Origin: an uncultured Candidatus Saccharibacteria bacterium
GTDB lineage: Bacteria; Patescibacteriota; Minisyncoccia; UBA6257; WO2-44-18
DNA: 40,707 nt
Reading direction: 5' to 3'
Assembly: GCA_964361325.1 (NCBI GenBank)
Contig: CAYHZT010000002.1
Coordinates: 1-40,707, forward strand
Shown piece after piece: positions 11,955 to 34,964 of the stretch; positions within the stretch are counted from its first letter, which is position 1, and each line of letters starts with the position of its first letter. Under the pieces are notes generated by a model. The model was not told the DNA's origin, ran no database searches, and saw only the letters and a program-made list of their open reading frames with translations. Made by a program: the position numbers and the translations under genes.

Positions 11955-13019
11955 CTATTTTAACGCCCCCACGAGTTTCTCTATAAGCGTGTTGAGGTCG
12001 TGGCGGCCCAAAACGTATTCTCGCAAACGCGCTCCCATTTGTTGCTTTTCTTGATTTGACATAGCCAAAGCGACGCCAAGTGCCCGGGCTAAATCTTTCG
12101 CGTCCTTTTCTTGAAACCGCAGCGGTTCGGGCAAAATATCGGCAACGGCCTTGTTAGACGCAACTACCAACATCTCGCAGGCCATCGCTTCTATAATTGT
12201 TTTATCAAATGAGCCAGTTGGTGTCATATTGACGCAAATTTCATGGCTATTATAAAGTTCCGACGCTTTATGATTAGGTACCGCGTTTCGGAAAACTATT
12301 TTGCCTTTTTTAACGAGCGGTTCGGCGCGCGTTTTTAAAGAGGCGGCGTAAGCAACTTCGCTGTCCTTGCTCGGTTCGCCGGCAATAGTTAGCCTAAAAT
12401 CAACGACTTGAGTATCCAGCATTAATGCGGCATCAATAAGCACTTCAATAAATTTAATCGGGGAAAGTCGGCCAAGATACAAGATTGACTTGGGAAGTTT
12501 TTGAATCGCCGGCAATTTGCGAAAAAGGTTGGCGTCAATGCCAACCGGCATTTGTTTCGCTTTTTTGAAACGAGCGGCGAACGCGAAAGGAGAAGTGTGT
12601 AAAACCTTATCGGCAAGCGCGATGGCAACGCGCGCTCGCAAACCGCCCATCGGGTGGTTATACCAGAAAAATATTTTTTTACCGAGTAGCTTCCATAATT
12701 TTGCCCCCAAAATCATATATTCCGGATTCATATGCACCAACACCCTATCGTAATCTTTTCTAAGACGCCAAATGTACTTTAAAAAATTAATTGCGTAAAT
12801 TAATTTTTTAATAATTTTCAATTTCCAATTTCGAATTTCTAATTTTTCTTTTCCTAGAGAATAGACACGGACATTGTCGGGTAATTCCACCCTGCCGCGA
12901 TAAAGACAAATTACCGAGATTTTCTCAACGCGTTTTGCCAGTTCCTCAATCCACCGATGATACACGCCGAGGATGTCATCATCTTTATCTATTTTTTGGG
13001 TAATGAATAGTAAACGCAT
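11955..13019 (-). CDS. GT4-family (GT-B) glycosyltransferase
   Basis: 354 aa. C-terminal GSFDKTIIEAMACEMLVVASN (E-x7-E type motif). Contains an in-frame heptamer tract. Confidence 0.8.
   Translation of the reverse strand: MRLLFITQKIDKDDDILGVYHRWIEELAKRVEKISVICLYRGRVELPDNVRVYSLGKEKLEIRNWKLKIIKKLIYAINFLKYIWRLRKDYDRVLVHMNPEYMILGAKLWKLLGKKIFFWYNHPMGGLRARVAIALADKVLHTSPFAFAARFKKAKQMPVGIDANLFRKLPAIQKLPKSILYLGRLSPIKFIEVLIDAALMLDTQVVDFRLTIAGEPSKDSEVAYAASLKTRAEPLVKKGKIVFRNAVPNHKASELYNSHEICVNMTPTGSFDKTIIEAMACEMLVVASNKAVADILPEPLRFQEKDAKDLARALGVALAMSNQEKQQMGARLREYVLGRHDLNTLIEKLVGALK
12815..12842. repeat. degenerate heptanucleotide tract (TTTTCAA TTTCCAA TTTCGAA TTTCTAA) inside a GT4 gene
   Basis: Read directly. 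Encodes KLEIRNWKLKI in frame. Confidence 0.85.
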
Positions 13020-13028
13020 CTAGAGATT

Positions 13029-13739
13029 TTATTGTTTATGCGGCTGTTCTAATTTTTTTAAAACATAATAAACCCAAGTTCCAAACCATTTATTTTCGGG
13101 GAGACACCTGCTAATTCTATGTAGCCCTGGCAAAGCAATAGCGGCATGCGCATACCCCTCTTCCTTTAAGTCAAAATATCGTAAAAAAGTTTTTTCAAAA
13201 ATACCGTGAGGGAAAACACTAATATGATTATTTGTTTCGTTCCACTTTGGGAAAAGACCGCGTTTTAAGAACACTAACCGGGAAACTATATGAAAAACGT
13301 TAGGCATAGAAACGAATAGTTGGCCGCCCGGTTTTAGTATTCGCCATATTTCACGCATGGCGTGATGAGGGTTTTCAAGATGCTCAAACACTTCCCATGC
13401 CGTTACGGCATCGAAACTCCCGCTTTTCCAGGGAAAGTTTTCTGAATTTCCATCAAATACCCGAAAATCATTTAAAACTGACCGTATATCACCTGCCATA
13501 AAATTACCAATATCGCAGCCATAAAGTTGTGTATATCCAATTGAGCTTAATTCCTTTAGAAACCCCCCGGACCCCGTTCCGAAATCTAAAATTTTTGAAT
13601 CTTTGTTTTTAAGACTACGACAAAATATATCCACGCACTTTCCTTTCAGGGGCAATGGCCTAACGCTGGCTTGCGCGGCAAATCCCTTTTTTATTGCGTT
13701 TGTTTTCGTCTTCATTTCTTCGGGTGTGTAATACTCCAT
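13029..13739 (-). CDS. class I SAM-dependent methyltransferase (paralog set A)
   Basis: 236 aa. Motifs ILDFGTGSGGF, FDAVTAWEVFEHLENP and NNHISVFP. N-terminus is MEYYTPEEMK. Confidence 0.85.
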   Translation of the reverse strand: MEYYTPEEMKTKTNAIKKGFAAQASVRPLPLKGKCVDIFCRSLKNKDSKILDFGTGSGGFLKELSSIGYTQLYGCDIGNFMAGDIRSVLNDFRVFDGNSENFPWKSGSFDAVTAWEVFEHLENPHHAMREIWRILKPGGQLFVSMPNVFHIVSRLVFLKRGLFPKWNETNNHISVFPHGIFEKTFLRYFDLKEEGYAHAAIALPGLHRISRCLPENKWFGTWVYYVLKKLEQPHKQ

Positions 13740-13790
13740 TTTTGAGATACTAACAATAAAAATAATTAACTACAATAATAATCTGCGTTT

Positions 13791-14927
13791 CTATTGCCAT
13801 GAGATTTTAATTCTATCCAAGTACTCCTGTTTGGTAGGCCAACTCTGGAAAAATTTTTCCTGTGTATTTATAACTTTTGCGCGCTGATCGGGGTTTTTTA
13901 TCATCTCCGCTATCGTATATGATAGCGCCTTACGATCTCCCACCGGTACGGTCTTCCCAATAGCCACGCCGACATCGGTCATAATTACGGGCAAGCCGGC
14001 GGTCGCCGCCTCAACCACTCCCATCCCATAACCCTCATAATTGGAAGTACTCAAAAATAAATCGGCCGTCTTATAATAAGAAATCAAATCGTCGGTCCAG
14101 CTCTCAATTCTAATACTATCCCCTAATTCATAATTCTTGATTCTTGATTCAAGATTTTCACGCTCCGGCCCATTCCCCACTATAAGCAATAAAGGGGCCA
14201 TGATTCCCGACCCCTGATTCTTAATTCTGGCGAAAGCCCCTATAGCCAAGTCAATGTTTTTCTCCTTCGTCAATCGTGAAGCCATCAAAATTATAAAATC
14301 GTGGTTGGGATATTTTTTATGTAAGTCATTTCTAACGGGTGCGTTTCGTATTTTTTCCACATCAACAAAAATCGGCAAAACAGTAATCCGTGATTCTTTA
14401 TTCTTTATTCTTGATTCGAGCGATTCTTTTATCCGCTCGGAAACGACGCGAAGACAATCGGCCTTTTTGATGAGCCGTTTTGCCAGCAGAACGCGAAGTT
14501 TGTTTTTCAATGATTCGCGCCAAAAATATGGACTTAAAAAATCGGTGTGGATTTGTATTTGGAGGGGGATTTTAAATTTTTTCTTAAGCCAATAACCGAC
14601 TAGGCCAGTTTCAAATGGATCCTGGGTAGTTATAATACAATTCTCAATTTTCAATTTTAAATTTTCGATTATGGATTTACAAATTTTATAGGCATCAAAA
14701 AAATAAAGTGGCTTAAATTTTGTGTTTGTCGGATAAGCAAAAACATTTTTGGCAATTTGTAATTTGGCGCTTGTTTGAAAATTGGAAATTGGAAATTGGA
14801 AATTTCGTCTTGTAAAGACAACTATATGCAGTTCATCAACAAGACTGCTATATTCCGCCATTCTCTGGCGCACTGCCGAGTTTTCTTCAAAAATCTTTCC
14901 GTCAACGGAAAGCATTAATACCTTCAT
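13791..14927 (-). CDS. GT4-family glycosyltransferase
   Basis: 378 aa. Motifs YEGYGMGVVEAATAGLPVIMTDVG and IVGNGPERENLE. Carries four separate heptamer tracts. Confidence 0.8.
   Translation of the reverse strand: MKVLMLSVDGKIFEENSAVRQRMAEYSSLVDELHIVVFTRRNFQFPISNFQTSAKLQIAKNVFAYPTNTKFKPLYFFDAYKICKSIIENLKLKIENCIITTQDPFETGLVGYWLKKKFKIPLQIQIHTDFLSPYFWRESLKNKLRVLLAKRLIKKADCLRVVSERIKESLESRIKNKESRITVLPIFVDVEKIRNAPVRNDLHKKYPNHDFIILMASRLTKEKNIDLAIGAFARIKNQGSGIMAPLLLIVGNGPERENLESRIKNYELGDSIRIESWTDDLISYYKTADLFLSTSNYEGYGMGVVEAATAGLPVIMTDVGVAIGKTVPVGDRKALSYTIAEMIKNPDQRAKVINTQEKFFQSWPTKQEYLDRIKISWQ
14124..14151. repeat. heptamer tract TAATTCA TAATTCT TGATTCT TGATTCA
   Basis: Read directly. Encodes ESRIKNYELG. 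Homologous position and sequence to 15949-15976. Confidence 0.85.
14391..14418. repeat. heptamer tract TGATTCT TTATTCT TTATTCT TGATTCG
   Basis: Read directly. Encodes ESRIKNKESRI. Confidence 0.85.
14641..14668. repeat. heptamer tract TTCTCAA TTTTCAA TTTTAAA TTTTCGA
   Basis: Read directly. Encodes IENLKLKIEN. Confidence 0.85.
14779..14804. repeat. perfect (AAATTGG)x3 plus partial unit; reverse complement of the TTTCCAA unit
   Basis: 14779-14799 is three exact units. Encodes FQFPISNFQ, which is the opposite-orientation reading of the 16111-16138 tract. Confidence 0.9.
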
Positions 14928-15571
14928 TGTCGTTTTTCCAGCACAAAAAAATAATGGTAAGGATTTAAAACCGGGCTTAATTCCTTAACAATCCTAAAAT
15001 TGTCGCTCAAGATTTTCCGCACTTTCCGTAATGAGTATTTAGAAGCGTCTATTTCCCAGTAATGCTGGCCGGAGACTTTAATACCGCCAAACTTCATGGG
15101 CAAGCGCAATAAAACGCTAAGAAATGGCTTTTTAAACAAAGTACGAACGCCCGGAAAGCGAAAAACAAATTCAAAAAACGTAGATTTATAAGGCACGGAG
15201 ATAATGACGTGGCGTGAAGCAACTCTTTGAAACTCCAAAAGGGCTTTGGGGAAATCTTCAAATGGTATGTGCTCCAAAACCTCAAAAGCGGTTACCACGT
15301 CAAAACTATTATTCTTAAGCGGCAAAGAACGGACATCGGCCACGACATCCGGAGCGAGATTTTTATCAAAATCGCAAGTGGTTACGTTGTATCCAAGCTT
15401 CTTAAGATAATCAGAAAAAAAACCGTTGCCCTTTCCCACTTCCAAAATCTTGAAATTGGCATCGTTAGCTCGCGCAACTTCTTGCGTCAAATCAGCCTGA
15501 TAGAAATACGAAATAAAGCGGTTTAGGCTGTCGTAATCCTTCTGAAAGTAATGCTCTTTATTAACCTGCAT
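14924..15571 (-). CDS. class I SAM-dependent methyltransferase (distinct from paralog set A)
   Basis: 215 aa. Motifs ILEVGKGNGFFSDYL and FDVVTAFEVLEHIP. 4-nt overlap with the downstream GT and 1-nt overlap with the upstream GT. Confidence 0.8.
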   Translation of the reverse strand: MQVNKEHYFQKDYDSLNRFISYFYQADLTQEVARANDANFKILEVGKGNGFFSDYLKKLGYNVTTCDFDKNLAPDVVADVRSLPLKNNSFDVVTAFEVLEHIPFEDFPKALLEFQRVASRHVIISVPYKSTFFEFVFRFPGVRTLFKKPFLSVLLRLPMKFGGIKVSGQHYWEIDASKYSLRKVRKILSDNFRIVKELSPVLNPYHYFFVLEKRQ

Positions 15572-17865
15572 TATTTTTGAATCGCATCTTGATTAATTAA
15601 GCTTACCAAGTTATCAACGGTTCGGTCTATTGAGAACTGTTGGGATTTTTCTTGAGCGTTTTTCACGATCATTTTCCGAAATTCATCATTCTCCGAAATT
15701 TTTTTGATTGCCGCCAAAATTTGTTGCCGATTATTCGGCTCAACTAAAATTCCCTCTTTACCGTCCTCAATAATTTCCGCCAAATTGCCAATATTGGTCG
15801 TGATTACCGGAACGCCGGCATTCATCGCTTCTACAACCTGGAAAGAAAAACTCTCAAAAGCTGTGTTTAGCACAAAGATTGATGATTTTTCTAAATATTC
15901 CAACAATTGCTCTCTAGGCAAAGAGCCAATCAATAAAACTCGTTCCCCTAATTCATAATTCTTAATTCGTAATTCAAGGCTCTCGCGCTCCGGCCCGTCG
16001 CCGACAATAATCAGCTTCCAATCCGGCAGATCTTTCATAACGTCAATCAAAACATCAAAACCCTTCCACGGAACCAATCTGCCAGCCGAAAGAATTGTTT
16101 TCGGCTGGAATTTCCAATTTCCAATTTCCAATTTCCAATTCTCTAGTGGAATACCGTTGTAGATAGCCTTAACTTTCTCCGGATTTTTAATCCAGCCGCC
16201 AACTAATTTCTGGAAGTATTTACTGGGAGTAATCACCAAATCGGCTTTTCCAACAACAAATCTTTGAATTTTCCGCAGTAATTCTATTCGCCAGCCGTAT
16301 TTCTTTTTCTGAAAATCATCAATCGTGTCCTTTACGCCGAATCTTTGAACGGATTGCTCCCAAGCATAATCACCAGCCACGCGAATAAAAAATTTCTTAC
16401 GACGCAGACGGGCCGCGATAAGCACGGGCAGGCCGACGCTTACCGGGTCTTGAGCGTACATAAAATCACAATCTTTAGTCATCCGCCAGCACTTCCACAA
16501 ATAAGACAGGTGGCGAATGATTTTTGGCTTGGTTCTAAATTTAGTGAACGGCAAAACGCTAACCATAAAGCCGCGTTTCGGCAGTTCTTGCTCCATCAAA
16601 ACGGTGTAGGTTGCCGGCCCGCCGATATCCGGAGGATATATACCGGTTGCGATCAAAATTTTCCCATGCCTACCGGCAGGCAGGAATTTTAAATTTTCAA
16701 TTTTCAATTTTTGGAAAATAGCGTCTATTTTTTTGGAAATATTGTCCCAGGAATAATTTTCTCTAACTAATTTTTGACCGTTTTGAGCTATTCGCAATCG
16801 TAATTTTTCGTCATTCGCTAAAACGCTGATTTTTTCCACTAAATCTTGCGGGTCATCAACTTTCGTGAAAAGACCCGTTTCGCCGTCTTTCAAAAAATCG
16901 GGAATACCCCCAACGGAAGTGCCGATTACAGGCAAGCCGGCCGCCATTGCTTCTAAAAATGAATTGCCCAATCCTTCGGAACGCGATGGGCGAACGAAAA
17001 TATCCGCTTGAGCAAGGTACGCGGGAATTTTTTCCGGCTCAATATGACCCAGAAATTCAATTTCATTTTCAACTCCCAAATCTTTAGCCAGTTTTTTCAA
17101 ATTTGCTTCCTCGGGACCGCTGCCAAGAATTTGAATTATGAATTGTGAATTGTGAATTAAGGGTTTTAATAGAGCAACGGCCTGAATCAGAGTATCTATT
17201 CCGTTTTTATGCACTAAACGAGAGGTGGTGATTATAACTTTTTCGTTTTTTGATTCATTCTTAATTCTTAATTCTTTATTCTTAATTCTCGTCAAGTCAA
17301 CGCCATTCGGCACCACTTCAATCGGACAGTTCGCTCCATGCCTCCGTGCGAACTCCGCCAAATAATTACTGATGGCCTGAATATGGTCCGCTTTTTTGAA
17401 AATCAAACGCCAGAGCGGATAAAAAATTCCGACCCGCTTTAAAATATGGCCCTCGGAATCGCCTTCTTGCAGGGTTAAAAGAAACGGCACGGACGGATGC
17501 CGTAATTTGAATAGCAGAGCAGCGATGCCGCTGTAGGCGGCCATAACCGCCCAAATCACCTCAAGAGGTTTTTCTTTATGCAACTTTTCCGCTTTCCACC
17601 AAACTCTGAAAACATAAAAAAATTTTTCCAAGAAACGTCCGTAATAATTTTTGGAACTGCTTCCTCGGCCGACCCGGAATATTTCGCAATTTCCCAATCG
17701 TTCATGGGATGGCCAAGATCGGTCAAACCGATTAGTTAAAATAAAAAAATCTTGCCCGGGAATCCGATCGCTTATTTCTTTAACCGCCACTTCCGCTCCC
17801 CCGATAAAAGGGGAGTAGGCAAGACTAAAAATAGCTATTCTTTGAATATCTTTAACGGGACTCAT
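15571..17865 (-). CDS. tandem GT4-GT4 two-module glycosyltransferase
   Basis: 764 aa. Module 1 ends ...NYSWDNISKKIDAIFQKL and has SEGLGNSFLEAMAAGLPVIGTSVGGIPD. Module 2 starts KILIATGIYPPDIGGPATY and has FESFSFQVVEAMNAGVPVITTNIGNLAE. The linker is repeat-derived (see 16667-16714). Confidence 0.85.
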   Translation of the reverse strand: MSPVKDIQRIAIFSLAYSPFIGGAEVAVKEISDRIPGQDFFILTNRFDRSWPSHERLGNCEIFRVGRGSSSKNYYGRFLEKFFYVFRVWWKAEKLHKEKPLEVIWAVMAAYSGIAALLFKLRHPSVPFLLTLQEGDSEGHILKRVGIFYPLWRLIFKKADHIQAISNYLAEFARRHGANCPIEVVPNGVDLTRIKNKELRIKNESKNEKVIITTSRLVHKNGIDTLIQAVALLKPLIHNSQFIIQILGSGPEEANLKKLAKDLGVENEIEFLGHIEPEKIPAYLAQADIFVRPSRSEGLGNSFLEAMAAGLPVIGTSVGGIPDFLKDGETGLFTKVDDPQDLVEKISVLANDEKLRLRIAQNGQKLVRENYSWDNISKKIDAIFQKLKIENLKFLPAGRHGKILIATGIYPPDIGGPATYTVLMEQELPKRGFMVSVLPFTKFRTKPKIIRHLSYLWKCWRMTKDCDFMYAQDPVSVGLPVLIAARLRRKKFFIRVAGDYAWEQSVQRFGVKDTIDDFQKKKYGWRIELLRKIQRFVVGKADLVITPSKYFQKLVGGWIKNPEKVKAIYNGIPLENWKLEIGNWKFQPKTILSAGRLVPWKGFDVLIDVMKDLPDWKLIIVGDGPERESLELRIKNYELGERVLLIGSLPREQLLEYLEKSSIFVLNTAFESFSFQVVEAMNAGVPVITTNIGNLAEIIEDGKEGILVEPNNRQQILAAIKKISENDEFRKMIVKNAQEKSQQFSIDRTVDNLVSLINQDAIQK
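15949..15976. repeat. heptamer tract (TAATTCN)x4
   Basis: TAATTCA TAATTCT TAATTCG TAATTCA. Encodes LELRIKNYELG. Confidence 0.9.
16082..16138. repeat. 10-bp-stem hairpin (CCAGCCGAAA / TTTCGGCTGG) immediately followed by perfect (TTTCCAA)x4
   Basis: Inverted repeat at 16082-16091 / 16099-16108. Four exact heptamers at 16111-16138. Encodes NWKLEIGNWKFQPKTILSAG. Confidence 0.9.
16667..16714. repeat. imperfect 16-bp GC palindrome (TGCCTACCGGCAGGCA) plus heptamer tract TTTTAAA TTTTCAA TTTTCAA TTTTTGG forming the inter-module linker
   Basis: Read directly. Encodes KLKIENLKFLPAGRHG, exactly between the two GT4 modules. Confidence 0.85.
17133..17160. repeat. heptamer tract GAATTAT GAATTGT GAATTGT GAATTAA (reverse orientation of the TTAATTC family)
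   Basis: Read directly. Encodes IHNSQFIIQ. Confidence 0.85.
17261..17288. repeat. heptamer tract TTAATTC TTAATTC TTTATTC TTAATTC
   Basis: Read directly. Encodes RIKNKELRIKN. Confidence 0.9.
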
Positions 17866-18946: not shown

Positions 18947-18960
18947 GTTTCATGGTTCGA

Positions 18961-19035
18961 TGCGACTCACCATAAATAGTTCGGTGTGACTCGCTATAAA
19001 TAGTTCGGTGAGCTCACTATAGTATAGAACTCGGC
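18961..19035. repeat. 24-bp tandem direct repeat, two good copies plus one degenerate copy, just upstream of the glycan operon
   Basis: GCGACTCACCATAAATAGTTCGGT (18961-18984) and GTGACTCGCTATAAATAGTTCGGT (18985-19008) match at 21/24. They are followed by the related GAGCTCACTATAGTATAGAACTCGGCT. Confidence 0.85.
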
Positions 19036-28744: not shown

Positions 28745-30100
28745 TTAACGGTTTTTCAAGCACTTTTTAATGCTGGCAATCGCCGAGTCAATTTCTTTAT
28801 TCGTAGTCGGACGGCCAAAACTAAAACGCAAACTTCCCGAAGCGCGCGCCGGCGTAAAACCCAGCGCTTCCAATACATAAGACGCTTTATTCACTCTTGT
28901 GGCGCAAGCGGCGCCGGGTGAAACGGCCACTCCTCCAACTAAATCAAACTTAATCAGTAATTCTTGCGCCTTTCGTCCGGAAAAATAAATGTTGAGATTA
29001 TTCGGCAAGCGATTTCGCAACGATCCATTCAGCGCAACCGATTTTGAACCTAGAGTTTTTTGAAGCAACTGCCAAAAATAGTTTCGTAATTTTTCCATTC
29101 TGGCCGATTCGGACTTTCTCGCCTCGTCGGCAAGCTCTACCGCTTTGGCAAAACCGACAATATACGGAACGTTTTCCGTACCGGAGCGTAAGCCGTTTTC
29201 CTGATCGCCACCGGTCATAATTGGTTTAACTAATTGTAAATCCGAAATTCGAGTATCGAAATTCGAAACGTTTTTGAATTTTGAACTTTGAACTTGTTTC
29301 GGATTTCGTGCTTCGTGCTTTGAATTTCTCACATAGAGCGCGCCTATTCCCTTGGGGCCATAGATTTTGTGAGCCGAGAGCGTCATTAAATCAACGCCCA
29401 ATCCGCCAGGTGGCGGATTCACGTTACAATCCAAATACTGAAAGGCCTGGACGGCGTCGGTATGCAGAAGCGGATAAGCCGCTTCAAAATCCGAAATTCG
29501 AATATCGAAATTCGAAACTGTTTTTGATTTTGAATTTTGAATTTGTTTCGGATTTCGTGCTTCGTGCTTCGAATTTTTGAAATTGCGAATAATATTAGCG
29601 ATTTCCCGAATCGGTTGAATTGCGCCAATTTCATTATTCGCGTAAATAATAGAAACCAATATCGTCTGATCGTTTAACGCCGTTTTAAATTTTTTTAAGT
29701 CCATCAGTCCGTCTTTGGAAACGGGAATGTAAATAACCTCTACGCCATCTTTTTCCAGATCGCGGCAGGTTTCCAAAACCGATTCGTGTTCAATCGCGGT
29801 TGTTATGATCCTGGGTTTCTTAATTCTTAATTCCTGATTCATAATTCCCTTAACCGAGCCCCTCAAAGCGAGATTATTCGCCTCTGTAGCCGAACCGGTA
29901 AAAATAATCTCCCGATAATCGGCGCCAATAGAATGAGCAATTGTTTGGCGTGAAACAAAAACCGCCCTTGACGCCTCCTGGCCGAAACGATGAAGCGAAT
30001 TAGGGTTGGCAAAAATTTTAGTAAAATACGGCGACATTGCCGCCATTACTTTAGAATCAATCGGCGTTGAAGCGGCATAATCGAAATAAATAGGCTTCAT
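28745..30100 (-). CDS. cysteine desulfurase (NifS/IscS class) carrying three in-frame repeat insertions
   Basis: PLP-lysine context SAHKIYGPKG, plus GGDQENGLRSGTEN and the active-site loop SPGAACAT. At 451 aa it is about 60-70 aa longer than usual because of the repeat-encoded segments. Confidence 0.9.
   Translation of the reverse strand: MKPIYFDYAASTPIDSKVMAAMSPYFTKIFANPNSLHRFGQEASRAVFVSRQTIAHSIGADYREIIFTGSATEANNLALRGSVKGIMNQELRIKKPRIITTAIEHESVLETCRDLEKDGVEVIYIPVSKDGLMDLKKFKTALNDQTILVSIIYANNEIGAIQPIREIANIIRNFKNSKHEARNPKQIQNSKSKTVSNFDIRISDFEAAYPLLHTDAVQAFQYLDCNVNPPPGGLGVDLMTLSAHKIYGPKGIGALYVRNSKHEARNPKQVQSSKFKNVSNFDTRISDLQLVKPIMTGGDQENGLRSGTENVPYIVGFAKAVELADEARKSESARMEKLRNYFWQLLQKTLGSKSVALNGSLRNRLPNNLNIYFSGRKAQELLIKFDLVGGVAVSPGAACATRVNKASYVLEALGFTPARASGSLRFSFGRPTTNKEIDSAIASIKKCLKNR
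29238..29328. repeat. ~91-nt heptamer-periodic hairpin element, copy A, in-frame in the cysteine desulfurase
   Basis: AAATCCG AAATTCG AGTATCG AAATTCG ... TCGTGCT TCGTGCT TTGAATT. Internal 10-bp inverted repeat AAATCCGAAA (29238-29247) / TTTCGGATTT (29297-29306). About 92% identical to copy B by eye. Encodes RNSKHEARNPKQVQSSKFKNVSNFDTRISDL. Confidence 0.9.
29487..29577. repeat. ~91-nt heptamer-periodic hairpin element, copy B, in-frame in the cysteine desulfurase
   Basis: Same element 249 nt (83 codons) from copy A, in the same orientation and phase. Inverted repeat at 29487-29496 / 29546-29555. Encodes KNSKHEARNPKQIQNSKSKTVSNFDIRISDF. Confidence 0.9.
29819..29846. repeat. heptamer tract TTAATTC TTAATTC CTGATTC ATAATTC inside the cysteine desulfurase
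   Basis: Read directly. Encodes MNQELRIKK. Same family as the tracts in the GT4 genes. Confidence 0.85.
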
Positions 30101-30157
30101 AGTGTTGTTTTATACTAAACCTTGACCAAGCTTAATAAAAGATGTAGTTTATTGGCA

Positions 30158-30640
30158 ATGTCAGATTTTTTCAATAGCTCTCTGGGGTTAAAAATGAGCG
30201 CCGAACAGGTTGGGCGGGAAATTGTTAACTTTATGAAAGCCGATTCTCAAAAAGAATATAAAATAACCATTGGCACCGATTCGCTTAGAACTCACGATAA
30301 TCTCGCCGATTTCGTAACTGCCATCGTGGTTCATCGGGTTGGCAACGGTGGCCGGTATTTTTGGCGGCGTATTGATAATTCGGAAAAATATCATACTCTG
30401 CGCGATCGCATAACCCACGAAGTATTGATTTCTTTGGAAGCCGCAAAAGAATTTTTGAACGAATTAAAACAACTTGAAGCGCCGAAATTTGATTTTGAAA
30501 TTCATATTGATATTGGTGAAAACGGCGCCTCTAAAGTTATGATCCAGGAGTTGGTAGGAATGATCCGCGCCAATAATTTTGAGGTAAGGACCAAGCCCGA
30601 CAGCTACGCCGCTTCCAACGTAGCCGATCGTCACGTCTAA
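30158..30640 (+). CDS. RNase H-like YkuK/DUF458 family protein
   Basis: YKITIGTDS...DFVTAIVVHRVGNGGRYF pattern typical of DUF458. The track start at 30122 is a TTG; the ATG at 30158 (MSDFF) is preferred. Confidence 0.65.
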   Translation: MSDFFNSSLGLKMSAEQVGREIVNFMKADSQKEYKITIGTDSLRTHDNLADFVTAIVVHRVGNGGRYFWRRIDNSEKYHTLRDRITHEVLISLEAAKEFLNELKQLEAPKFDFEIHIDIGENGASKVMIQELVGMIRANNFEVRTKPDSYAASNVADRHV

Positions 30641-30654
30641 ACTATAATTTAAAA

Positions 30655-31218
30655 ATGGATAAGCTTGTTATTGATATAGAAACGAAAAATACTTTTGCCG
30701 ATGTTGGCGGGCAAGAATATGTTAAAAAGTTGGACGCCTCTTTCGTCGGCGTTTATTCATACAATAAAGACGCTTATTTTTCTTTTTTCGAAAATCAATT
30801 CGGCGAACTTAATGAACTTTTAAAAAAGGCTGGTTTGATAATCGGATTCAGTATCAATCGCTTTGACATCCCGGTTTTGGAAAAGTACGTCAATTTTGAC
30901 ATCTGGTCTATTCCCCGCCTGGATCTTTTGGAAGAAGTAGAAATTGGCTTGGGCAGTCGTATCAGTCTGGATATTCTGGCCAAAACCAATCTCGGCATCG
31001 GAAAAACTCACCACGGCCTTGAGGCAATTAAATTTTATCGGGAAGGTAATTTCGAAGAGCTAAAAAGTTATTGCTTAAATGACGTTAAAATCACCAAAGA
31101 GCTTTATGAAATGGCTAAAAAACAGAGGCACCTAATGGTGCCTCATCGCCAGACCGGCGAATTGCTGAAAGTAGTAATGAACTGGCAAGAAGTTGATTTG
31201 CCGGCTACTTTATTTTAA
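30655..31218 (+). CDS. RNase H-fold DEDD-type 3'-5' exonuclease-like protein (YprB-like)
   Basis: 187 aa. Motifs LVIDIET (ExoI-like D-x-E), GFSINRFDIPVL and YCLNDVKITKELY. Confidence 0.6.
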   Translation: MDKLVIDIETKNTFADVGGQEYVKKLDASFVGVYSYNKDAYFSFFENQFGELNELLKKAGLIIGFSINRFDIPVLEKYVNFDIWSIPRLDLLEEVEIGLGSRISLDILAKTNLGIGKTHHGLEAIKFYREGNFEELKSYCLNDVKITKELYEMAKKQRHLMVPHRQTGELLKVVMNWQEVDLPATLF

Positions 31219-31454
31219 TTGTCGCGTTCGTGATGTTCTGATTCGTCGTCGCAGTGATTGCGATGTTCGCACCTGTCTGAATCCTTATCGTGTTTCCTGC
31301 AGCGCTTTTTGTCTTTATCTTTATCCTTGTCGTCGGAATCGGGGTTTTGAATTTGCTCATTATTAATCGTAACAGAATTCGAATGATGGTTATGACGGCA
31401 GCCAAGAAAAAAAACTCCAACGAACATCAAAATCAGAAAGAGGACGTGGCGCAT
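31215..31454 (-). CDS. small His/Asp/Lys/Cys-rich secreted or lipid-anchored protein
   Basis: 79 aa. The hydrophobic N-terminus ends FFLGC (lipobox-like). The remainder is HNHH...DSDDKDKDKDKKRCRKHDKDSDRCEHRNHCDDESEHHERDN. A canonical GGAGG lies 4 nt upstream of the ATG (ACAGGAGGCAGTATG). No homolog recognised. Confidence 0.55.
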   Translation of the reverse strand: MRHVLFLILMFVGVFFLGCRHNHHSNSVTINNEQIQNPDSDDKDKDKDKKRCRKHDKDSDRCEHRNHCDDESEHHERDN

Positions 31455-31478
31455 ACTGCCTCCTGTGAAGTGCCGTGA

Positions 31479-32402
31479 TTATTTTACCAGATTTTTTGTG
31501 ATTTGTCGCAAGTGTTCGTTCAAAACCGATTCTTTTTTGGCTTCAATATTCAGACGAAGCAAATTTTCGGTATTGGAAGACCGTAAACTGAACCACCACT
31601 CGCCGGACGGCGAGTTAAATTCCATTTTAAGTCCGTCTAATTCCGAAATTGTTTTTGATTTCTTCGCGTAAAGGGATTTAATTTTCTTTAAAGCCGCCGT
31701 TTTATCTTTGATGGAAAAATTGATTTCACCTGATTGGAAATATTTCGGAAGCCGATCAATCCAAGCGGCAATATTCTCCGGCAACGCATTAATGAGATGG
31801 ATTGCGCCCAGAATTCCAGAATCCCAGTACGCCGATCCGCTTTTGGCCGAAAACCCTTTAAATTTAAAGTAGTAGTGTCCGGATTGTTCCGCTCCAAAGT
31901 CCGCTTGTTTTTCGGACATCAGTTTTTTGATGAAATAGTGTCCGACACGCGAATCTAAAGCTGATTTTTTGTCGGCAGCCAGCGCTTCACGAATTAAATA
32001 ACCCGATCGCGCGTCCAGTGTTACCGGACCTGAAAAATTTTTAGAAATCAGAACGGCCGCAACATCGGGGTTTATTTCCCGGCCTAAGTTATCCATAAAA
32101 AAAACACGGTCGCCATCGGCGTCCAAAATAACTCCCAAATCCGCGCGATGGCGTAAAACAGCCTCTTTTAATTCCCTCAAAGCGTCTTTGGCCATTGGAT
32201 TCGGCCCGTGAGCCGGAAAATTTCCGTCCGGTTTGCCGTTGATGATTATCAATTCTAGATTTTCCCTGGCCGGGCAGGCAATTTTCAATTTAGAAAGAAT
32301 TAATCCCGCTGTCCCGTTTGAGCAATCAAATACTACGCACAGTGGCCTTTTTGGTTTTAAGAATTTTTTCAAAAAATCCGCGTAAAGATTTATATAATCC
32401 AT
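31479..32402 (-). CDS. phosphomannomutase/phosphoglucomutase, C-terminal fragment (domains II-IV)
   Basis: 307 aa. Motifs FDCSNGTAG, DADGDR and GAEQSGHYYF. It starts inside the A6 run that ends the N-terminal fragment. Confidence 0.8.
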   Translation of the reverse strand: MDYINLYADFLKKFLKPKRPLCVVFDCSNGTAGLILSKLKIACPARENLELIIINGKPDGNFPAHGPNPMAKDALRELKEAVLRHRADLGVILDADGDRVFFMDNLGREINPDVAAVLISKNFSGPVTLDARSGYLIREALAADKKSALDSRVGHYFIKKLMSEKQADFGAEQSGHYYFKFKGFSAKSGSAYWDSGILGAIHLINALPENIAAWIDRLPKYFQSGEINFSIKDKTAALKKIKSLYAKKSKTISELDGLKMEFNSPSGEWWFSLRSSNTENLLRLNIEAKKESVLNEHLRQITKNLVK

Positions 32403-32788
32403 TTTTTAATTTCTTCCCCGCTGATGGGCGCCGCTTTTTTTCCGACAATTTTAAGACCGTTGAATTCTTTGGGATTATGAGAGGCGGTTACCATGATCCC
32501 GCCCACAGCTTTTAACTTGTTGACCAAAAAATAAAGCATCGGAGTGGTGGTAGGACCCACCACAATAATTTCTAATTTCGATCCGCCAGCTGGCGGACTA
32601 ATTTTCAATGATTGAAGGGCTGATTTGTAAAGCGCTGGTGAACTTAAACGGGCGTCGTGAGCAACGACAATCCTTCCCTTACCAAAATGTTTAGCTAGGA
32701 CTGCGATAATTTCTGACACCGCATTTTCATTTATTTCCTCGGGATATTTGCCGCGAATGTCGTAGGCTTTAAATATGGTGGGGTTCAT
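32390..32788 (-). CDS. phosphomannomutase/phosphoglucomutase, N-terminal fragment (domain I with catalytic Ser)
   Basis: MNPTIFKAYDIRGKYP start and the phosphoserine loop GGIMVTASHNPKEFNGLKI. The track start at 32797 adds MCG. Ends 13 nt after the start of the C-terminal fragment, in another frame. Confidence 0.8.
   Translation of the reverse strand: MNPTIFKAYDIRGKYPEEINENAVSEIIAVLAKHFGKGRIVVAHDARLSSPALYKSALQSLKISPPAGGSKLEIIVVGPTTTPMLYFLVNKLKAVGGIMVTASHNPKEFNGLKIVGKKAAPISGEEIKKWII
32567..32612. repeat. AT-rich heptamers flanking a perfect 16-bp palindrome (TCCGCCAGCTGGCGGA) inside PMM/PGM domain I
   Basis: AATTTCT AATTTCG at 32567-32580, palindrome at 32582-32597, then CTAATTTTCAATGAT. Encodes LKISPPAGGSKLEI. 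Confidence 0.85.
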
Positions 32789-32876
32789 CCCGCACATAAC
32801 AAAGAGTGCGTTATTAGCGCAATCCTTGCATAAATTTGCCTATGCCCGACGACCTGCTCTTTGTTATGTGCGGGAT
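32787..32876. promoter_or_regulatory. perfect 20-bp inverted repeat with a 50-nt spacer covering the PMM/PGM translation start
   Basis: ATCCCGCACATAACAAAGAG (32787-32806) and its exact reverse complement (32857-32876). In the minus-strand RNA the 3' arm ends in the AU of the PMM AUG. Confidence 0.7.
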
Positions 32877-32888
32877 TCATACTATTAT
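32861..32888 (+). promoter_or_regulatory. candidate sigma70-like promoter for ftsK (TTGTTA-N16-TATTAT)
   Basis: Hexamers at 32861-32866 and 32883-32888, 28 nt upstream of the ATG at 32916. The -35 lies in the right arm of the inverted repeat. Hexamer match only. Confidence 0.3.
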
Positions 32889-32915
32889 TAATAATCATAG
32901 TGGGTATTTCGCCTC

Positions 32916-34964
32916 ATGTCTAAAAAAGAACGTCCGCATCAGCCAAAAATCCATTCGGAAACTAAAAATAGCCTAATAGCGGTTCTTCTCGCTGGTATTG
33001 CCGTCATTTTGGTGCTTGCCGCCGTTGACAAGGCCGGGCCAGTCGGCCGTTTCGTTTATCTTATCCTGCAAAATCTTTTTGGCTGGGGATATTATCTTTT
33101 GCCTACAATAGCGGCCTTAATCGCTTTTTTATTCTTAGTTGCCCGGCAAAAAGTTTTTGTCACCACCAGCTTCCTCGGCGCCGCTTTATTTATTGTATCG
33201 GGTTTGGGCTTGATTGATATTCTTTTTGAAAATAAAGGAGGGTTTTTAGGTCGGATAGTGGGTTTATTGGAAATACCATTCGGCTATACCGCTTCTATTA
33301 TAATAAGTGTGGTTTTATTAATTGCCGCTGTTTTAATAACATTTAACGCTTCAATTAAATTCAAAAAAGTAGAAACGGAAAAATCGGCGGATCCGGCTAA
33401 AGAGGTTTTGGAAAAAGAACCGGAAGAGGCGGTAATTGCCGAACCTGAGCTACCGGTCACAAATCCCGCAGCCGCGATAAAAACGGACAAAATAAAAATT
33501 GCGGATGGTTTTCCAATGCCGCCGGCGCGCAAGTCTCCCGCTCGAATTAAAACTTATCCCAATTACGTCACGCCACCGCTGACGCTTTTAAAAACATCTG
33601 TAGAGAAACCGACTTCCGGCGATTTGAGGGCCAACGCCAATATTATTAAAAGAACTTTGGACAGCTTCGGCATCGCGGTAGAAATGGGCGAGATAAACAT
33701 CGGACCAAAAGTCACTCGCTACACGTTAAAGCCGGCCGAAGGCGTAAAGATCAGTAAAATTTTAACGCTTAATCAGGACCTGTCCTTAGCGTTGGCCGCT
33801 CATCCTATCAGAATTGAAGCGCCGATTCCCGGAAAATCTCTGGTGGGAATAGAGGTGCCGAATAAATCGGCGGCAGTCGTCCGTCTTGGCAGTTTAATGG
33901 CATATCCGGAATTTAAAGAGTCGGGGCCGCTCGCTTTTATTTTGGGACGCGGCGTCAGCGGCGAACCTATCATGGCCGATTTGGAAAAAATGCCCCATCT
34001 TATGGTTGCCGGCAGTACCGGCAGCGGAAAAAGCGTTTCTATTCATGCCCTTCTGGTTTCTTTGTTGTATAAAAATTCGCCCGACACTTTGCGCTTGGCG
34101 CTTATCGATCCTAAACGAGTGGAGCTTTCAATTTACGGCGGAGTGCCGCATCTTATCAGCCCCGTAATCATTGACGGGAAAAAAGCCGTTGGCCTTTTCC
34201 GCTGGGCAATCAAAGAAATGGAACGCCGATACGAGATACTACTGGAGGCCGGCGCCCGCGACATCGGCTCCTACAATCAAAAAAGCGAAACTGCGTTGCC
34301 TTTTATAGTATTGGTGGTAGATGAATTGGCCGATCTGATGGCCGCCTACGGCCGAGAAATAGAAAGCTCGGTTGTCCGCCTTGCTCAGATGGCGCGCGCC
34401 ACGGGAATCCATCTTGTGGTTTCTACTCAGCGCCCGTCAGTGGAAGTCATCACCGGACTAATCAAGGCTAATATCACCGCGCGCATCGCTCTCCAAGTCG
34501 CGAGCCAAGTGGATTCCAGAACGATTTTAGACATGGCCGGCGCCGAAAAACTTCTCGGCGGCGGAGATATGCTCTTTATTTCCTCGGATTTTTCCAAACC
34601 AAAAAGAATTCAGGGCGCTTATATTTCCGAGGAGGAAATTCGCAGCGTTGCGGAATTTATTGAAAAAAATAATGATACCGTTGAAGAATATTCTTTTAGC
34701 GGCGAAGCGGGAAATAACGCGGGTGGGTTCGCGGGTGATTTGGATGGCGACGAAACCGATGATGAACTTTTTCAGGATGCGGTCCGGGTAGTTACGGAAT
34801 CTAAAAAAGCCTCAGCGTCCCTTCTTCAAAGACGTTTATCAATCGGTTACGCAAGAGCCGCTCGTTTATTGGATATTATGGAGGAAAAAGGGATTATTGG
34901 CCCGGGAGACGGCGCTAAGCCCAGAGAGGTATTTATTAATCAGGAGAATAGTGATATAAATTAG
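32916..34964 (+). CDS. ftsK: DNA translocase FtsK/SpoIIIE
   Basis: 682 aa. N-terminal membrane helices, Walker A VAGSTGSGKS, Walker B VVDELADLM, and a C-terminal gamma wHTH (ASASLLQRRLSIGYARAARLLDIMEEKGIIG). Confidence 0.95.
   Translation: MSKKERPHQPKIHSETKNSLIAVLLAGIAVILVLAAVDKAGPVGRFVYLILQNLFGWGYYLLPTIAALIAFLFLVARQKVFVTTSFLGAALFIVSGLGLIDILFENKGGFLGRIVGLLEIPFGYTASIIISVVLLIAAVLITFNASIKFKKVETEKSADPAKEVLEKEPEEAVIAEPELPVTNPAAAIKTDKIKIADGFPMPPARKSPARIKTYPNYVTPPLTLLKTSVEKPTSGDLRANANIIKRTLDSFGIAVEMGEINIGPKVTRYTLKPAEGVKISKILTLNQDLSLALAAHPIRIEAPIPGKSLVGIEVPNKSAAVVRLGSLMAYPEFKESGPLAFILGRGVSGEPIMADLEKMPHLMVAGSTGSGKSVSIHALLVSLLYKNSPDTLRLALIDPKRVELSIYGGVPHLISPVIIDGKKAVGLFRWAIKEMERRYEILLEAGARDIGSYNQKSETALPFIVLVVDELADLMAAYGREIESSVVRLAQMARATGIHLVVSTQRPSVEVITGLIKANITARIALQVASQVDSRTILDMAGAEKLLGGGDMLFISSDFSKPKRIQGAYISEEEIRSVAEFIEKNNDTVEEYSFSGEAGNNAGGFAGDLDGDETDDELFQDAVRVVTESKKASASLLQRRLSIGYARAARLLDIMEEKGIIGPGDGAKPREVFINQENSDIN

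What the first reader, a model, noticed from the sequence alone, without database searches (positions are those of the whole stretch)
29238..29846. Selfish-looking ~91-nt hairpin elements inserted twice in-frame around the PLP-lysine of an essential cysteine desulfurase (plus a third heptamer tract)
Seen: copies at 29238-29328 and 29487-29577 are about 92% identical and exactly 249 nt apart, in the same orientation and phase. Each is built from about 13 heptamers (AAATCCG AAATTCG ... TCGTGCT TCGTGCT) and contains a 10-bp inverted repeat AAATCCGAAA/TTTCGGATTT. The same CCGAAA/TTTCGG core forms the hairpin next to the heptamers at 16082-16108 in a glycosyltransferase. The two copies encode KNSKHEARNPKQIQNSKSKTVSNFDIRISDF and RNSKHEARNPKQVQSSKFKNVSNFDTRISDL on either side of SAHKIYGPKG. 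The element is also open on the opposite strand (track ORF 29281..29580). From memory of IscS/NifS sequences, about a dozen residues separate ALYVR from the GGG(Q/H)E motif. Here there are 38, and about 30 extra residues precede HTDAVQA. A third tract (29819-29846, MNQELRIKK) lies near the N-terminus. Established: Rickettsia palindromic elements are the known precedent for repeats that insert in-frame into protein-coding genes. Inference: an analogous, apparently undescribed family operates in this lineage, and it links the GT tracts, the PMM palindrome and these elements.
Basis: partly seen in the sequence, partly recalled or inferred. Interest (0 to 1): 0.75.

Follow-up and report, generated by a model that had tools for sequence, protein, structure and literature searches.

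The report
Hairpin repeats translated inside cysteine desulfurase
Two copies of a 91-base hairpin-forming repeat sit in frame inside the cysteine desulfurase gene of a tiny groundwater (CPR) bacterium and are read as two floppy 30-residue loops; the same repeat family is scattered between genes in many unrelated bacterial phyla, and in CPR bacteria it also sits inside other housekeeping enzymes.

Summary
Window 29238-29328 and 29487-29577 are 93% identical, 249 nt apart, and in the same orientation and frame. They lie inside a 451-aa IscS/NifS-type gene (28745-30100, minus strand). Each adds about 30 residues that are absent from every solved IscS/NifS/NFS1 structure and are low-confidence in an AlphaFold model.

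The copies belong to a large family of imperfect palindromes built from heptamers. A 21-mer from the left arm hit the 120-locus limit among species genomes from about ten phyla, and most of those copies are intergenic. In low-GC CPR genomes the family is also in frame in LeuRS, TsaE, RNase HII, a GT4 glycosyltransferase, a PIF1 helicase and three IscS loops.

The arm is conserved as DNA. It is 94% identical to relatives, against 77-78% for the host gene (56-57% at third codon positions). The copies have no stop codon in any of the three coding-strand frames, and only the most hydrophilic orientation and frame is seen in IscS.

Close relatives carry three different states at one insertion site. 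I found no transposase, no target duplication, no Rfam family and no paper describing it.

It works like Rickettsia palindromic elements but is not a member of that family. The proposed links to the glycosyltransferase hairpin and the PMM palindrome are not supported.

The parts
28745..30100 (-). Host gene: 451-aa class-V aminotransferase, an IscS/NifS-type cysteine desulfurase. The PLP-lysine K245 (codon 29366-29368) and the catalytic Cys399 are intact.
   Evidence: invariant columns. The AlphaFold core matches IscS/NFS1 structures with target-normalised TM-scores of 0.84-0.91.
29487..29577 (-). Element copy B, at insertion site 2 (after IIRNF[K/R], before YPLLHTDAVQ). It is translated as NSKHEARNPKQIQNSKSKTVSNFDIRISD, residues 176-204.
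   Evidence: It aligns to no PDB homologue. pLDDT is below 50 at residues 183-203. All three minus-strand frames are open.
29238..29328 (-). Element copy A, at insertion site 3 (after ALYVR, before LQLVKPIMTGGDQE). It is translated as NSKHEARNPKQVQSSKFKNVSNFDTRISD, residues 259-287.
   Evidence: pLDDT is below 50 at residues 262-288. All three minus-strand frames are open.
29270..29328 (-). Left arm of copy A, read on the minus strand: AAATTCAAAGCACGAAGCACGAAATCCGAAACAAGTTCAAAGTTCAAAATTCAAAAAC. It contains the cross-phylum 21-mer GAAGCACGAAATCCGAAACAA. The matching arm of copy B is 29519-29577.
   Evidence: A 36-nt core of the arm is 94% identical to relatives, against 77-78% for the host gene.
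29238..29269 (-). Right arm of copy A, read on the minus strand: GTTTCGAATTTCGATACTCGAATTTCGGATTT. It pairs with the left arm. The matching arm of copy B is 29487-29518. It is shorter than in full-length family members, because the inner part of the arm is missing.
   Evidence: folds; family consensus; short form found in 25 metagenome loci.
29400..29419 (-). A 20-nt near-perfect palindrome, AATCCGCCAGGTGGCGGATT, lying between the two copies. It encodes NPPPGG, a 4-residue insertion seen only in the window protein among the 30 aligned orthologues. Its ends, AATCCG/CGGATT, resemble the element termini.
   Evidence: Its relation to the family is only an inference.
29817..29847 (-). Separate heptamer tract (TTCTTAA)x4.4 encoding MNQELRIKK at insertion site 1. 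It belongs to a different repeat family (ELRIKN) that also occurs at 15949-15976 and 17257-17289.

Best explanation
The two segments are copies of a non-autonomous palindromic repeat element. It is about 90-190 nt long, its arms are built from CGAAAnn-type heptamers, and its centre is variable. It normally lies between genes as a DNA/RNA hairpin.

Shown:
- The copies sit in two loops of the cysteine desulfurase, one on each side of the strand that carries the PLP-lysine.
- They are in frame and free of stop codons.
- They encode strongly hydrophilic segments that the structure model predicts with low confidence, while the catalytic residues and core fold are intact.

Inferred:
- The copies are transcribed and translated with the gene as passenger loops. 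They are tolerated rather than useful to the enzyme.
- Tolerance has two sources. The heptamer arms avoid stop codons in most frames. Selection then keeps only insertions whose orientation and frame give a hydrophilic peptide in a surface loop.
- Copies within one genome are homogenised or replaced by recombination or gene conversion with other copies. This would explain why the two copies resemble each other more than same-site copies in other genomes, and why close relatives carry different elements at the same site.

Unresolved: how new copies arise. I found no transposase, no target-site duplication and no REP-type transposase partner. Microhomology of the element end (AGAAATTC...) with AAATT-rich target codons suggests recombination or template switching rather than cut-and-paste, but that was not tested.
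For: Repeat and insertion status.

Presence or absence among 120 Parcubacteria orthologues. Loop lengths are 9-61 aa at site 2 and 8-52 aa at site 3, and some orthologues have empty sites.

DNA-level conservation. A 36-nt core of the left arm is 94% identical to L124 and L121, with 92% identity at third codon positions. The host gene is 77-78% identical, with 56-57% at third positions.

The same family lies between genes in many phyla (at or above the 120-locus limit). 91 of 129 hits have a matching right arm. Arm GC is 0.38 whatever the host GC, which ranges from 0.35 to 0.69.

In-frame copies in other genes, confirmed with Pfam: LeuRS, TsaE, IscS site 1, GT4, PIF1, RNase HII and DUF2298.

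Stop avoidance. The window copies are open in 3-4 of 6 frames, against 0.6 in shuffles. The 89 full elements average 1.87 open frames, against 0.25.

Frame and orientation filter. In the IscS orthologues there are 36 matches in the NSKHEARNPKQ frame, 3 in the other same-strand frames and none in the opposite orientation. The frame in use has the lowest GRAVY, about -1.5.

The inserts have low pLDDT while the core is above 90, and the fold matches IscS/NFS1.

My reading of the alignment is that about five of the six substitution events between the two copies change the amino acid.

Within-genome identity of the two copies is 0.80, equal to or above the best same-site copy from any other genome.

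Three different states occur at site 3 in near-identical relatives.

An independent assembly carries both copies.
Against: - Only two copies lie in 40.7 kb, and both are in one gene. Activity in this genome is therefore not shown.
- Insertions of the same type at the same two sites in orthologues only 55-75% identical could also mean old, vertically inherited insertions.
- I found no empty site in a near-identical strain for this family. No precise insertion event, target duplication or mobilising enzyme has been seen.
- Retention in the mRNA and in the protein is inferred from frame and stop avoidance. It has not been observed.
- All cross-phylum hits are MAGs, so wrong binning of individual contigs cannot be excluded.
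Confidence: 0.7

Rival explanations
1. There is no transposition. The tracts arise and spread by local processes only: slippage of heptamer units at AAATT-rich codons, hairpin-templated copying, and gene conversion between loops of the same gene. On this view the two copies are an old feature of Parcubacteria IscS kept similar by concerted evolution.
For: - The copies have heptamer periodicity, and period-7 tracts are strongly enriched in the window.
- All IscS insertions, at three sites, use the same frame.
- Both window insertions start right after an R/K-N codon pair.
- No target-site duplication and no transposase were found.
- The two copies cluster by genome rather than by site.
Against: Independent slippage cannot produce arms of 21-50 nt that are identical in unrelated genes such as LeuRS, TsaE and RNase HII, and in intergenic DNA of other phyla with 60-69% GC. 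Close relatives carry unrelated element families at the same site.
Confidence: 0.15
2. The hairpin is a functional cis-acting nucleic-acid signal, such as a terminator or stabiliser, a protein-binding site or an RNase target. Selection keeps it conserved across phyla. Inside iscS it would regulate mRNA stability or translation around the active-site region.
For: - The arms are conserved whatever the host GC content.
- Intergenic copies are scarce between divergent genes: 4 of 51 classified, against 14 convergent and 33 tandem.
- The folds are significantly more stable than shuffles.
Against: - There is no clear strand asymmetry in wobble-type mismatches, with 363 on one strand and 293 on the other, so no RNA strand is favoured.
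- 38 of 129 hits show no right arm within 260 nt, so are presumably half elements that cannot fold.
- No Rfam family matches.
- The stems are AT-rich and are not followed by a U-run of the terminator type.
- The sites are empty in many orthologues.
Confidence: 0.1
3. The segments are an old lineage-specific protein feature, for example a docking loop for a partner protein, conserved because the peptide itself matters.
For: Similar peptides occur at the same two loops in many Parcubacteria orthologues. The peptide is always read in the same hydrophilic frame.
Against: - Third codon positions of the arm are conserved (92%) far above those of the host gene (56-57%).
- The same DNA occurs between genes and in other reading frames in other proteins, for example as RSTKSET in LeuRS, GT4 and TsaE.
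- Many orthologues lack the segments, or carry unrelated repeats at those sites.
- Most differences between the two copies change the amino acid (my reading).
- The segments are predicted with low confidence.
Confidence: 0.04
4. The segments are intervening sequences removed from the RNA or the protein, or they are an assembly artefact.
For: The hairpins could in principle be recognised by an RNA-processing enzyme. Repeats can also be mis-assembled.
Against: - Every coding copy keeps the reading frame and lacks stop codons. A spliced element would not need either property.
- A 31-aa peptide has no room for intein blocks.
- No intron family matches in Rfam.
- An independent assembly differing by 3 mismatches carries both copies, and orthologues from many samples show the same layout.
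Confidence: 0.02

Closest known systems
Rickettsia palindromic elements (RPEs; Ogata et al. 2000, Science 290:347, as summarised in PMC10969869)
   Same: - Both are short palindromic repeats found between genes and in frame inside unrelated housekeeping genes.
- Both are translated as an extra peptide compatible with the fold and function of the host protein.
- Both occur as several families side by side.
   Different: - The host lineages are unrelated: CPR and many free-living phyla, against Rickettsia.
- The arms are built from heptamers.
- The family spans many phyla, whereas RPE families are confined to one genus.
- Sequence relatedness to RPE-1 to RPE-10 was not tested.
REP/REPIN elements mobilised by RAYT (REP-associated tyrosine transposase)
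   Same: - Both have two inverted conserved arms around a less conserved spacer, which forms a long hairpin.
- Both have half elements (singlets).
- Neither shows target duplications.
- Both lie mostly downstream of genes.
   Different: - No RAYT gene is flanked by these elements. The Y1-like genes seen in 4 of 120 loci carry their own, different inverted repeats.
- The arms are about 50-60 nt rather than 20-35 nt.
- Many copies are intragenic.
Bacterial MITEs with in-frame intragenic copies (ERIC, BOX, Correia and others; reviewed in PMC10969869)
   Same: Both have terminal inverted repeats, small size, no coding capacity of their own, and occasional in-frame fusions with host ORFs.
   Different: No target-site duplication was detected. 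No parent insertion sequence with the same ends was found. The family has a far wider taxonomic range than any named MITE family.
Simple-sequence contingency loci (phase-variable repeats in glycosyltransferase genes)
   Same: Both involve short units that are not a multiple of three, lying inside surface-polysaccharide genes. This applies to the GT tracts in the window.
   Different: The 91-nt elements are degenerate heptamers (70-94% matches within tracts) arranged as a palindrome, not a uniform array. The GT tracts have only about 4-5 units. No length variation was examined.

Membership tests
Rickettsia palindromic elements (RPE) | Palindromic repeat of about 100-150 bp that can fold as a hairpin | tested here: met
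   The window copies are 91 nt and full family members are 100-240 nt. Fold z-scores range from -2 to -4.4.
Rickettsia palindromic elements (RPE) | In-frame insertion into unrelated protein-coding genes, with the host reading frame and catalytic residues preserved | tested here: met
   IscS at three sites, LeuRS at two sites, TsaE, RNase HII, GT4, PIF1 and DUF2298. The invariant catalytic residues are kept.
Rickettsia palindromic elements (RPE) | Insertions lie in surface regions compatible with the fold | tested here: met
   The inserts fall between secondary-structure elements and have pLDDT below 50, while the core is above 90. The fold matches IscS/NFS1. This is evidence from a model only.
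Rickettsia palindromic elements (RPE) | Sequence homology to RPE-1 to RPE-10, and occurrence in Rickettsiales | not tested
The hosts here are CPR and other phyla, so membership is not claimed.
Rickettsia palindromic elements (RPE) | Many copies per genome, both coding and intergenic | tested here: inconclusive
   Only two copies lie in the 40.7-kb window, and the full source genome is not available. Other genomes hold many copies: at least 11 loci come from one Tepidisphaeraceae MAG.
REP/REPIN-RAYT | A cognate RAYT (Y1 transposase) gene flanked by the repeats | tested here: not met
   Clustering all ORFs from the 120 loci found a Y1-like gene in 4 loci. Those genes are flanked by different inverted repeats, not by this element.
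REP/REPIN-RAYT | Inverted pair of conserved repeats with a variable spacer, plus singlets | tested here: met
   91 of 129 hits have both arms and 38 show only the left arm. The centres vary and track host GC.
MITE | Terminal inverted repeats | tested here: met
   The ends are AAATCCGAAA...TTTCGGATTT.
MITE | Target-site duplication flanking the element | tested here: not met
   89 of 91 full elements have no direct repeat of 2 nt or more at the computed ends. The ends are fuzzy because of the heptamer periodicity, so this is a weak negative.
MITE | A related autonomous insertion sequence with the same ends | tested here: not met
   No recurrent transposase was found within 8 kb in the 120 loci. 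Whole genomes were not searched.
Intein or self-splicing intron | Conserved splicing blocks or a ribozyme structure, and removal from the product | tested here: not met
   The peptide is only 31 aa. No Rfam intron family matched. Removal itself cannot be tested here.
Curated RNA families (Rfam 15) | A score at or above a family's gathering threshold | tested here: not met
   The window region gave only chance-level matches (E of 0.85 or higher). Sixteen loci holding full elements gave only tRNAs and one DUF3800-V RNA match, none of them called at the elements.

The most novel reading that the evidence does not exclude
The two iscS inserts are the visible tip of a single, apparently undescribed hairpin repeat family whose roughly 50-nt AT-rich arms are kept nearly identical across about ten bacterial phyla with 35-69% GC. 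That would imply either frequent exchange between phyla (for example between CPR or Omnitrophota episymbionts and their hosts) or a shared, still unknown host factor or mobilising activity that reads the heptamer arms. In CPR bacteria this family, together with sister heptamer families, would be a major and ongoing source of loop insertions in essential enzymes.
Probability: 0.3. Interest if true: 0.85.

Novelty: new variant of a known kind. Interest (0 to 1): 0.66.

Why it matters
Only a few cases are known of selfish or neutral repeats being read through as part of essential proteins. Rickettsia is the textbook example. This finding shows the same phenomenon in the Candidate Phyla Radiation, whose proteins are known almost only from metagenomes.

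There are three practical consequences:
- Many unexplained length differences and low-complexity loops in CPR proteins, and many short "hypothetical proteins", may be repeat-derived.
- Loop hot spots with rapid turnover mark places where enzymes tolerate insertions.
- A repeat family conserved as DNA across many phyla is unusual. It offers a handle on horizontal exchange, or on an unknown factor that recognises hairpins.

Tried and rejected
The concatenated query gave only six short ORFs.
- Rfam gave no family for the window region or for full elements.
- GenBank phage and PLSDB plasmid BLAST with a full element gave no match, although the low-complexity filter may have masked it. IMG/VR gave only 3 exact hits, so a viral vector is not indicated.
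- RAYT/Y1 transposase partner: rejected, because those genes have their own unrelated inverted repeats.
- Target-site duplications: none found.
- Strand-specific RNA selection tested through wobble asymmetry: weak and not decisive.
- Link to the PMM palindrome and to the GT 16082-16108 hairpin: rejected on sequence grounds.
- Literature. Four full-text searches failed or timed out. Five completed keyword searches found nothing on such elements in CPR. This is absence of evidence in a limited library only.
- One profile hit, P0136, is a false positive: a phage tail fibre with GGFDTRIS repeats.
Full report
**1. What is there**

The window region 28745-30100 (minus strand) encodes a 451-aa class-V aminotransferase. 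It matches Pfam Aminotran_5 at 6.5e-62. Its closest solved relatives are IscS, NFS1 and NifS cysteine desulfurases, at 1e-77 to 1e-67. Inside it, 29238-29328 and 29487-29577 form a direct repeat 249 nt apart. The two copies are 93.4% identical over 91 nt, with two compensating single-base indels (blastn-short E = 1.5e-29).

Each copy has the 10-nt terminal inverted repeat AAATCCGAAA/TTTCGGATTT, consists of degenerate heptamers, and folds better than shuffled sequence. RNA-fold z-scores are -3.4 and -3.5 on the plus strand and -1.0 and -4.4 on the minus strand. DNA-fold z-scores range from -2.0 to -3.5.

In the HMMER alignments to PDB chains, query residues 173-210 and 260-290 have no counterpart. 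Both copies are therefore insertions of about 30 residues, one on each side of the SAHK(245)IYGPKG strand that carries the PLP-lysine.

An independent Hainich groundwater contig (L152) is 99.94% identical to window 29143-33759 and holds both copies. The layout is therefore not an assembly artefact.

The third tract (29817-29847, MNQELRIKK) is a different heptamer array. It adds only about 7 residues relative to the shortest orthologues.

**2. The orthologues**

The 120 best database relatives are Parcubacteria/Patescibacteria cysteine desulfurases of 350-505 aa. When aligned, they show at least five loops of very variable length. Site 1 spans 8-62 aa, site 2 spans 9-61 aa and site 3 spans 8-52 aa.

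Sites 2 and 3 carry NSKHEARNPKQIQ...VSNFDIRISD-type peptides in some orthologues and are short, or empty, in others such as P0037, P0043, P0047 and P0094. Other orthologues hold unrelated repeat-like peptides at these sites. Examples are IQKIQIHSNNSNGNSD, NWKLKIKN, KSQIPNNKQISNSN..GAWDL and HPERQRRI..PQND; TNNES.TNKRIRKFATNSLFAD occurs at sites 2 and 5.

Where both sites carry the hairpin family, the two copies in one protein resemble each other as much as, or more than, the best same-site copy from any other genome. Within-genome identity is 0.80 for the window, 0.87 for P0034, 0.70 for P0046 and 0.67 for P0063.

I aligned the DNA of three close relatives whose flanks are nearly identical to one another (L121, L122, L124). 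At site 3 they show three different states:
- the hairpin element with a nested 21-nt GC-rich mini-palindrome;
- a different element, which also occupies site 1 of the same gene;
- the hairpin element together with loss of the adjacent GGDQENGLR coding stretch.

These loops are therefore hot spots with rapid turnover.

**3. DNA conservation, not protein conservation**

Between the window and L124 or L121, a 36-nt core of the left arm is 94% identical, with 92% identity at third codon positions. The host gene outside the elements is 77-78% identical, with 56-57% at third positions.

By my reading of the alignment, about five of the six substitution events between the two window copies change the amino acid.

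**4. A very wide family**

The 21-mer GAAGCACGAAATCCGAAACAA comes from the left arm as read on the minus strand. The hosts are MAGs of:
- Planctomycetota
- Desulfobacterota
- Patescibacteria (Saccharibacteria, Roizmanbacteria, Parcubacteria)
- Omnitrophota
- Aminicenantes and other Acidobacteriota
- Nitrospirota and Nitrospinota
- Hydrogenedentes
- Verrucomicrobiota (Chthoniobacter) and Victivallales
- a few Proteobacteria and one Actinomycetota bin

The hits include chromosome-level assemblies. At least 11 loci come from a single Tepidisphaeraceae MAG.

Around the 21-mer the loci share a common plan. A left arm of about 56 nt is followed by a variable centre and then by a right arm that is its imperfect reverse complement. 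Of the 129 hits, 91 have the right arm within 260 nt. The other 38 show no right arm within that distance and are probably half elements.

The arms have GC 0.38 +/- 0.05, while the host loci range from 0.35 to 0.69. Most copies are intergenic. Among classifiable sites, 33 lie between tandem genes, 14 between convergent genes and 4 between divergent genes.

The negative results were as follows:
- No Rfam family matches.
- GenBank phages and plasmids give no BLAST match.
- IMG/VR holds only three exact hits.
- No target-site duplication is seen.
- No recurrent transposase lies nearby. The few Y1-type genes have their own, different inverted repeats.

**5. In-frame copies in other proteins**

The following in-frame copies occur in low-GC CPR contigs and protein clusters, with the host domains confirmed by Pfam:
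- the leucyl-tRNA synthetase editing domain (L105) and catalytic core (P0131)
- TsaE (L141)
- RNase HII (P0128)
- a GT4 glycosyltransferase (L097)
- a PIF1-type helicase (L053)
- a DUF2298 membrane protein (P0209)
- site 1 of another IscS (L133)

I searched a profile of the two window peptides against 1.84 billion representative proteins. It found 120 hits at E <= 0.001. About 100 are ORFs of 36-130 aa, most likely gene calls over intergenic copies. About ten are real proteins with the match in the middle.

**6. Why coding insertions are tolerated**

The window copies have no stop codon in any of the three coding-strand frames. That makes 3-4 of 6 frames open, against 0.6 expected from shuffles. 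The 89 full elements from other genomes average 1.87 open frames, against 0.25.

In the 120 IscS orthologues the element appears 36 times in the NSKHEARNPKQ frame, 3 times in the two other same-strand frames and never in the opposite orientation. The frame in use is the most hydrophilic of the six translations, with GRAVY of about -1.5. LeuRS, GT4 and TsaE use the second most hydrophilic frame, RSTKSET.

The AlphaFold model (mean pLDDT 77.8) has pLDDT below 50 at residues 183-203 and 262-288. The core is mostly above 90 and superposes on IscS/NFS1 structures with target-normalised TM-scores of 0.84-0.91. All invariant catalytic residues are present.

**7. Interpretation**

Best explanation (confidence 0.7): the two copies are members of a palindromic repeat family. 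They are carried in frame and translated as disordered, hydrophilic passenger loops in two permissive loops of the enzyme. They are kept similar to each other by exchange with other copies.

Shown:
- the segments are repeats, and they are insertions;
- conservation is at the DNA level;
- intergenic and coding copies exist elsewhere;
- the copies avoid stop codons and show a frame bias;
- the sites are hot spots with turnover.

Inferred:
- the copies are translated;
- they are neutral to the enzyme;
- copies are homogenised by recombination.

Unknown: the mechanism of spread.

The main rival (0.15) is local slippage plus gene conversion without any mobile step. It accounts for the heptamers, the constant frame and the absence of target duplications. 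It does not account for identical arms in unrelated genes and phyla. A cis-regulatory hairpin (0.10), a functional protein loop (0.04), and splicing or an artefact (0.02) fit the data worse.

**8. Comparison with known systems**

The elements work like Rickettsia palindromic elements (PMC10969869, citing Ogata et al. 2000). I do not file them as RPEs, because homology was not tested and the hosts are unrelated. They are not REP/RAYT elements, because no partner gene was found. They are not classical MITEs, because there is no target duplication and no parent insertion sequence.

The traits that set them apart are the heptamer-built arms that avoid stop codons, the spread across many phyla, and the coexistence of several such families at the same protein loops.

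**9.

The PMM palindrome is a perfect 20-nt inverted repeat (32787-32806 / 32857-32876) with an unrelated sequence. The 16082-16108 hairpin lies in conserved GT coding sequence and is not detected by the family profile. These two links are not supported.

A looser link does hold. Period-7 tracts are about 20-fold enriched in the window, with 18 TRF rows against 0.77 in shuffles. The tract at 17257-17289 (RIKNKELRIKNE) fills the same loop of the GT that holds a half hairpin element in the orthologue L097.

**10. Verdict**

It is a new variant of a known kind. The interest score is 0.66, mainly for the cross-phylum DNA conservation and the extent of in-frame colonisation of CPR housekeeping genes.

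Caveats:
- All comparative data come from MAGs.
- Translation of the inserts has not been observed.
- The literature check was limited by the search tool.

Noticed in passing
window 31479-32797 (junction at 32390-32402); L122 7200-8636 (insert about 7652-7760): The phosphomannomutase/PGM gene is split into two overlapping ORFs at the boundary of domains I and II, in both the window and its relative L122. At exactly that junction L122 also carries an extra insertion of about 110 nt with the inverted repeat CCCGTTAGAAGTGG...CCACTTCTAACGGG.
   Followed up: partly
window 32787-32806 and 32857-32876: A perfect 20-nt inverted repeat, ATCCCGCACATAACAAAGAG / CTCTTTGTTATGTGCGGGAT, with a 50-nt spacer. 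It overlaps the start of the PMM gene, in the divergent region before ftsK. Its sequence is unrelated to the hairpin family.
   Followed up: partly
window 12813-17289 (TRF rows at 12813, 14393, 14638, 14775, 15949, 16109, 16685, 17127, 17257): Nine period-7 tandem tracts lie within the minus-strand gene cluster at 11955-17865, whose 15571-17865 gene was translated and reads as a two-domain GT4-type glycosyltransferase. Examples are (GGAAATT)x4.6 encoding ENWKLEIGNWKF and (GAATTAA)-type tracts encoding ELRIKN. The window has 18 period-7 rows, against 0.77 in shuffles. Whether copy number varies between strains (phase variation) was not examined.
   Followed up: partly
L121 2259-2430 versus L124 1283-1367; proteins P0020 and P0023 at site 2: A 21-nt GC-rich mini-palindrome, CCCGCCTGTCCGGCAGGCAGG (peptide PRLSGRQA or PACRQAW), is present or absent among near-identical strains. 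It occurs once nested inside the hairpin element and once in the site-2 loop. This looks like a recent in-frame insertion polymorphism of a second, much smaller element family.
   Followed up: partly
L124 525-1796 (P0021); also P0022 and P0024-P0026: Several contigs from different sources encode an IscS allele in which the conserved PIxTGGxQExGLR motif next to site 3 is missing and the right arm of the element joins directly to SGTENV. This may be an inactivated allele, or a variant that is tolerated.
   Followed up: no
window 29400-29419: A near-perfect 20-nt palindrome, AATCCGCCAGGTGGCGGATT, encodes NPPPGG. This 4-residue insertion is found only in the window protein among the 30 aligned orthologues. 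Its ends resemble the termini of the hairpin element.
   Followed up: no
L003, L014, L026 (Saccharibacteria loci), centres of the elements: Some full elements carry other small GC-rich palindromes nested in their variable centre, for example GTCGTCCCCGCGAAGGCGGGGAAC...CCCGCTTTCGCGGGAATGAC. This suggests that elements insert into one another.
   Followed up: no
window 18955-19021: An intergenic 24-nt tandem repeat of 2.8 copies with consensus GTTCGGTGAGACTCACTATAAATA.
   Followed up: no
L141 2108-2635 and L140 (Hainich H51 assembly, the same sample as L152): Contigs from the same groundwater sample, with GC (0.39-0.43) and coverage similar to the window's own contig, carry the short form of the element. 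One copy is in frame in TsaE and one is intergenic. They may come from the same or a sister genome.
   Followed up: no
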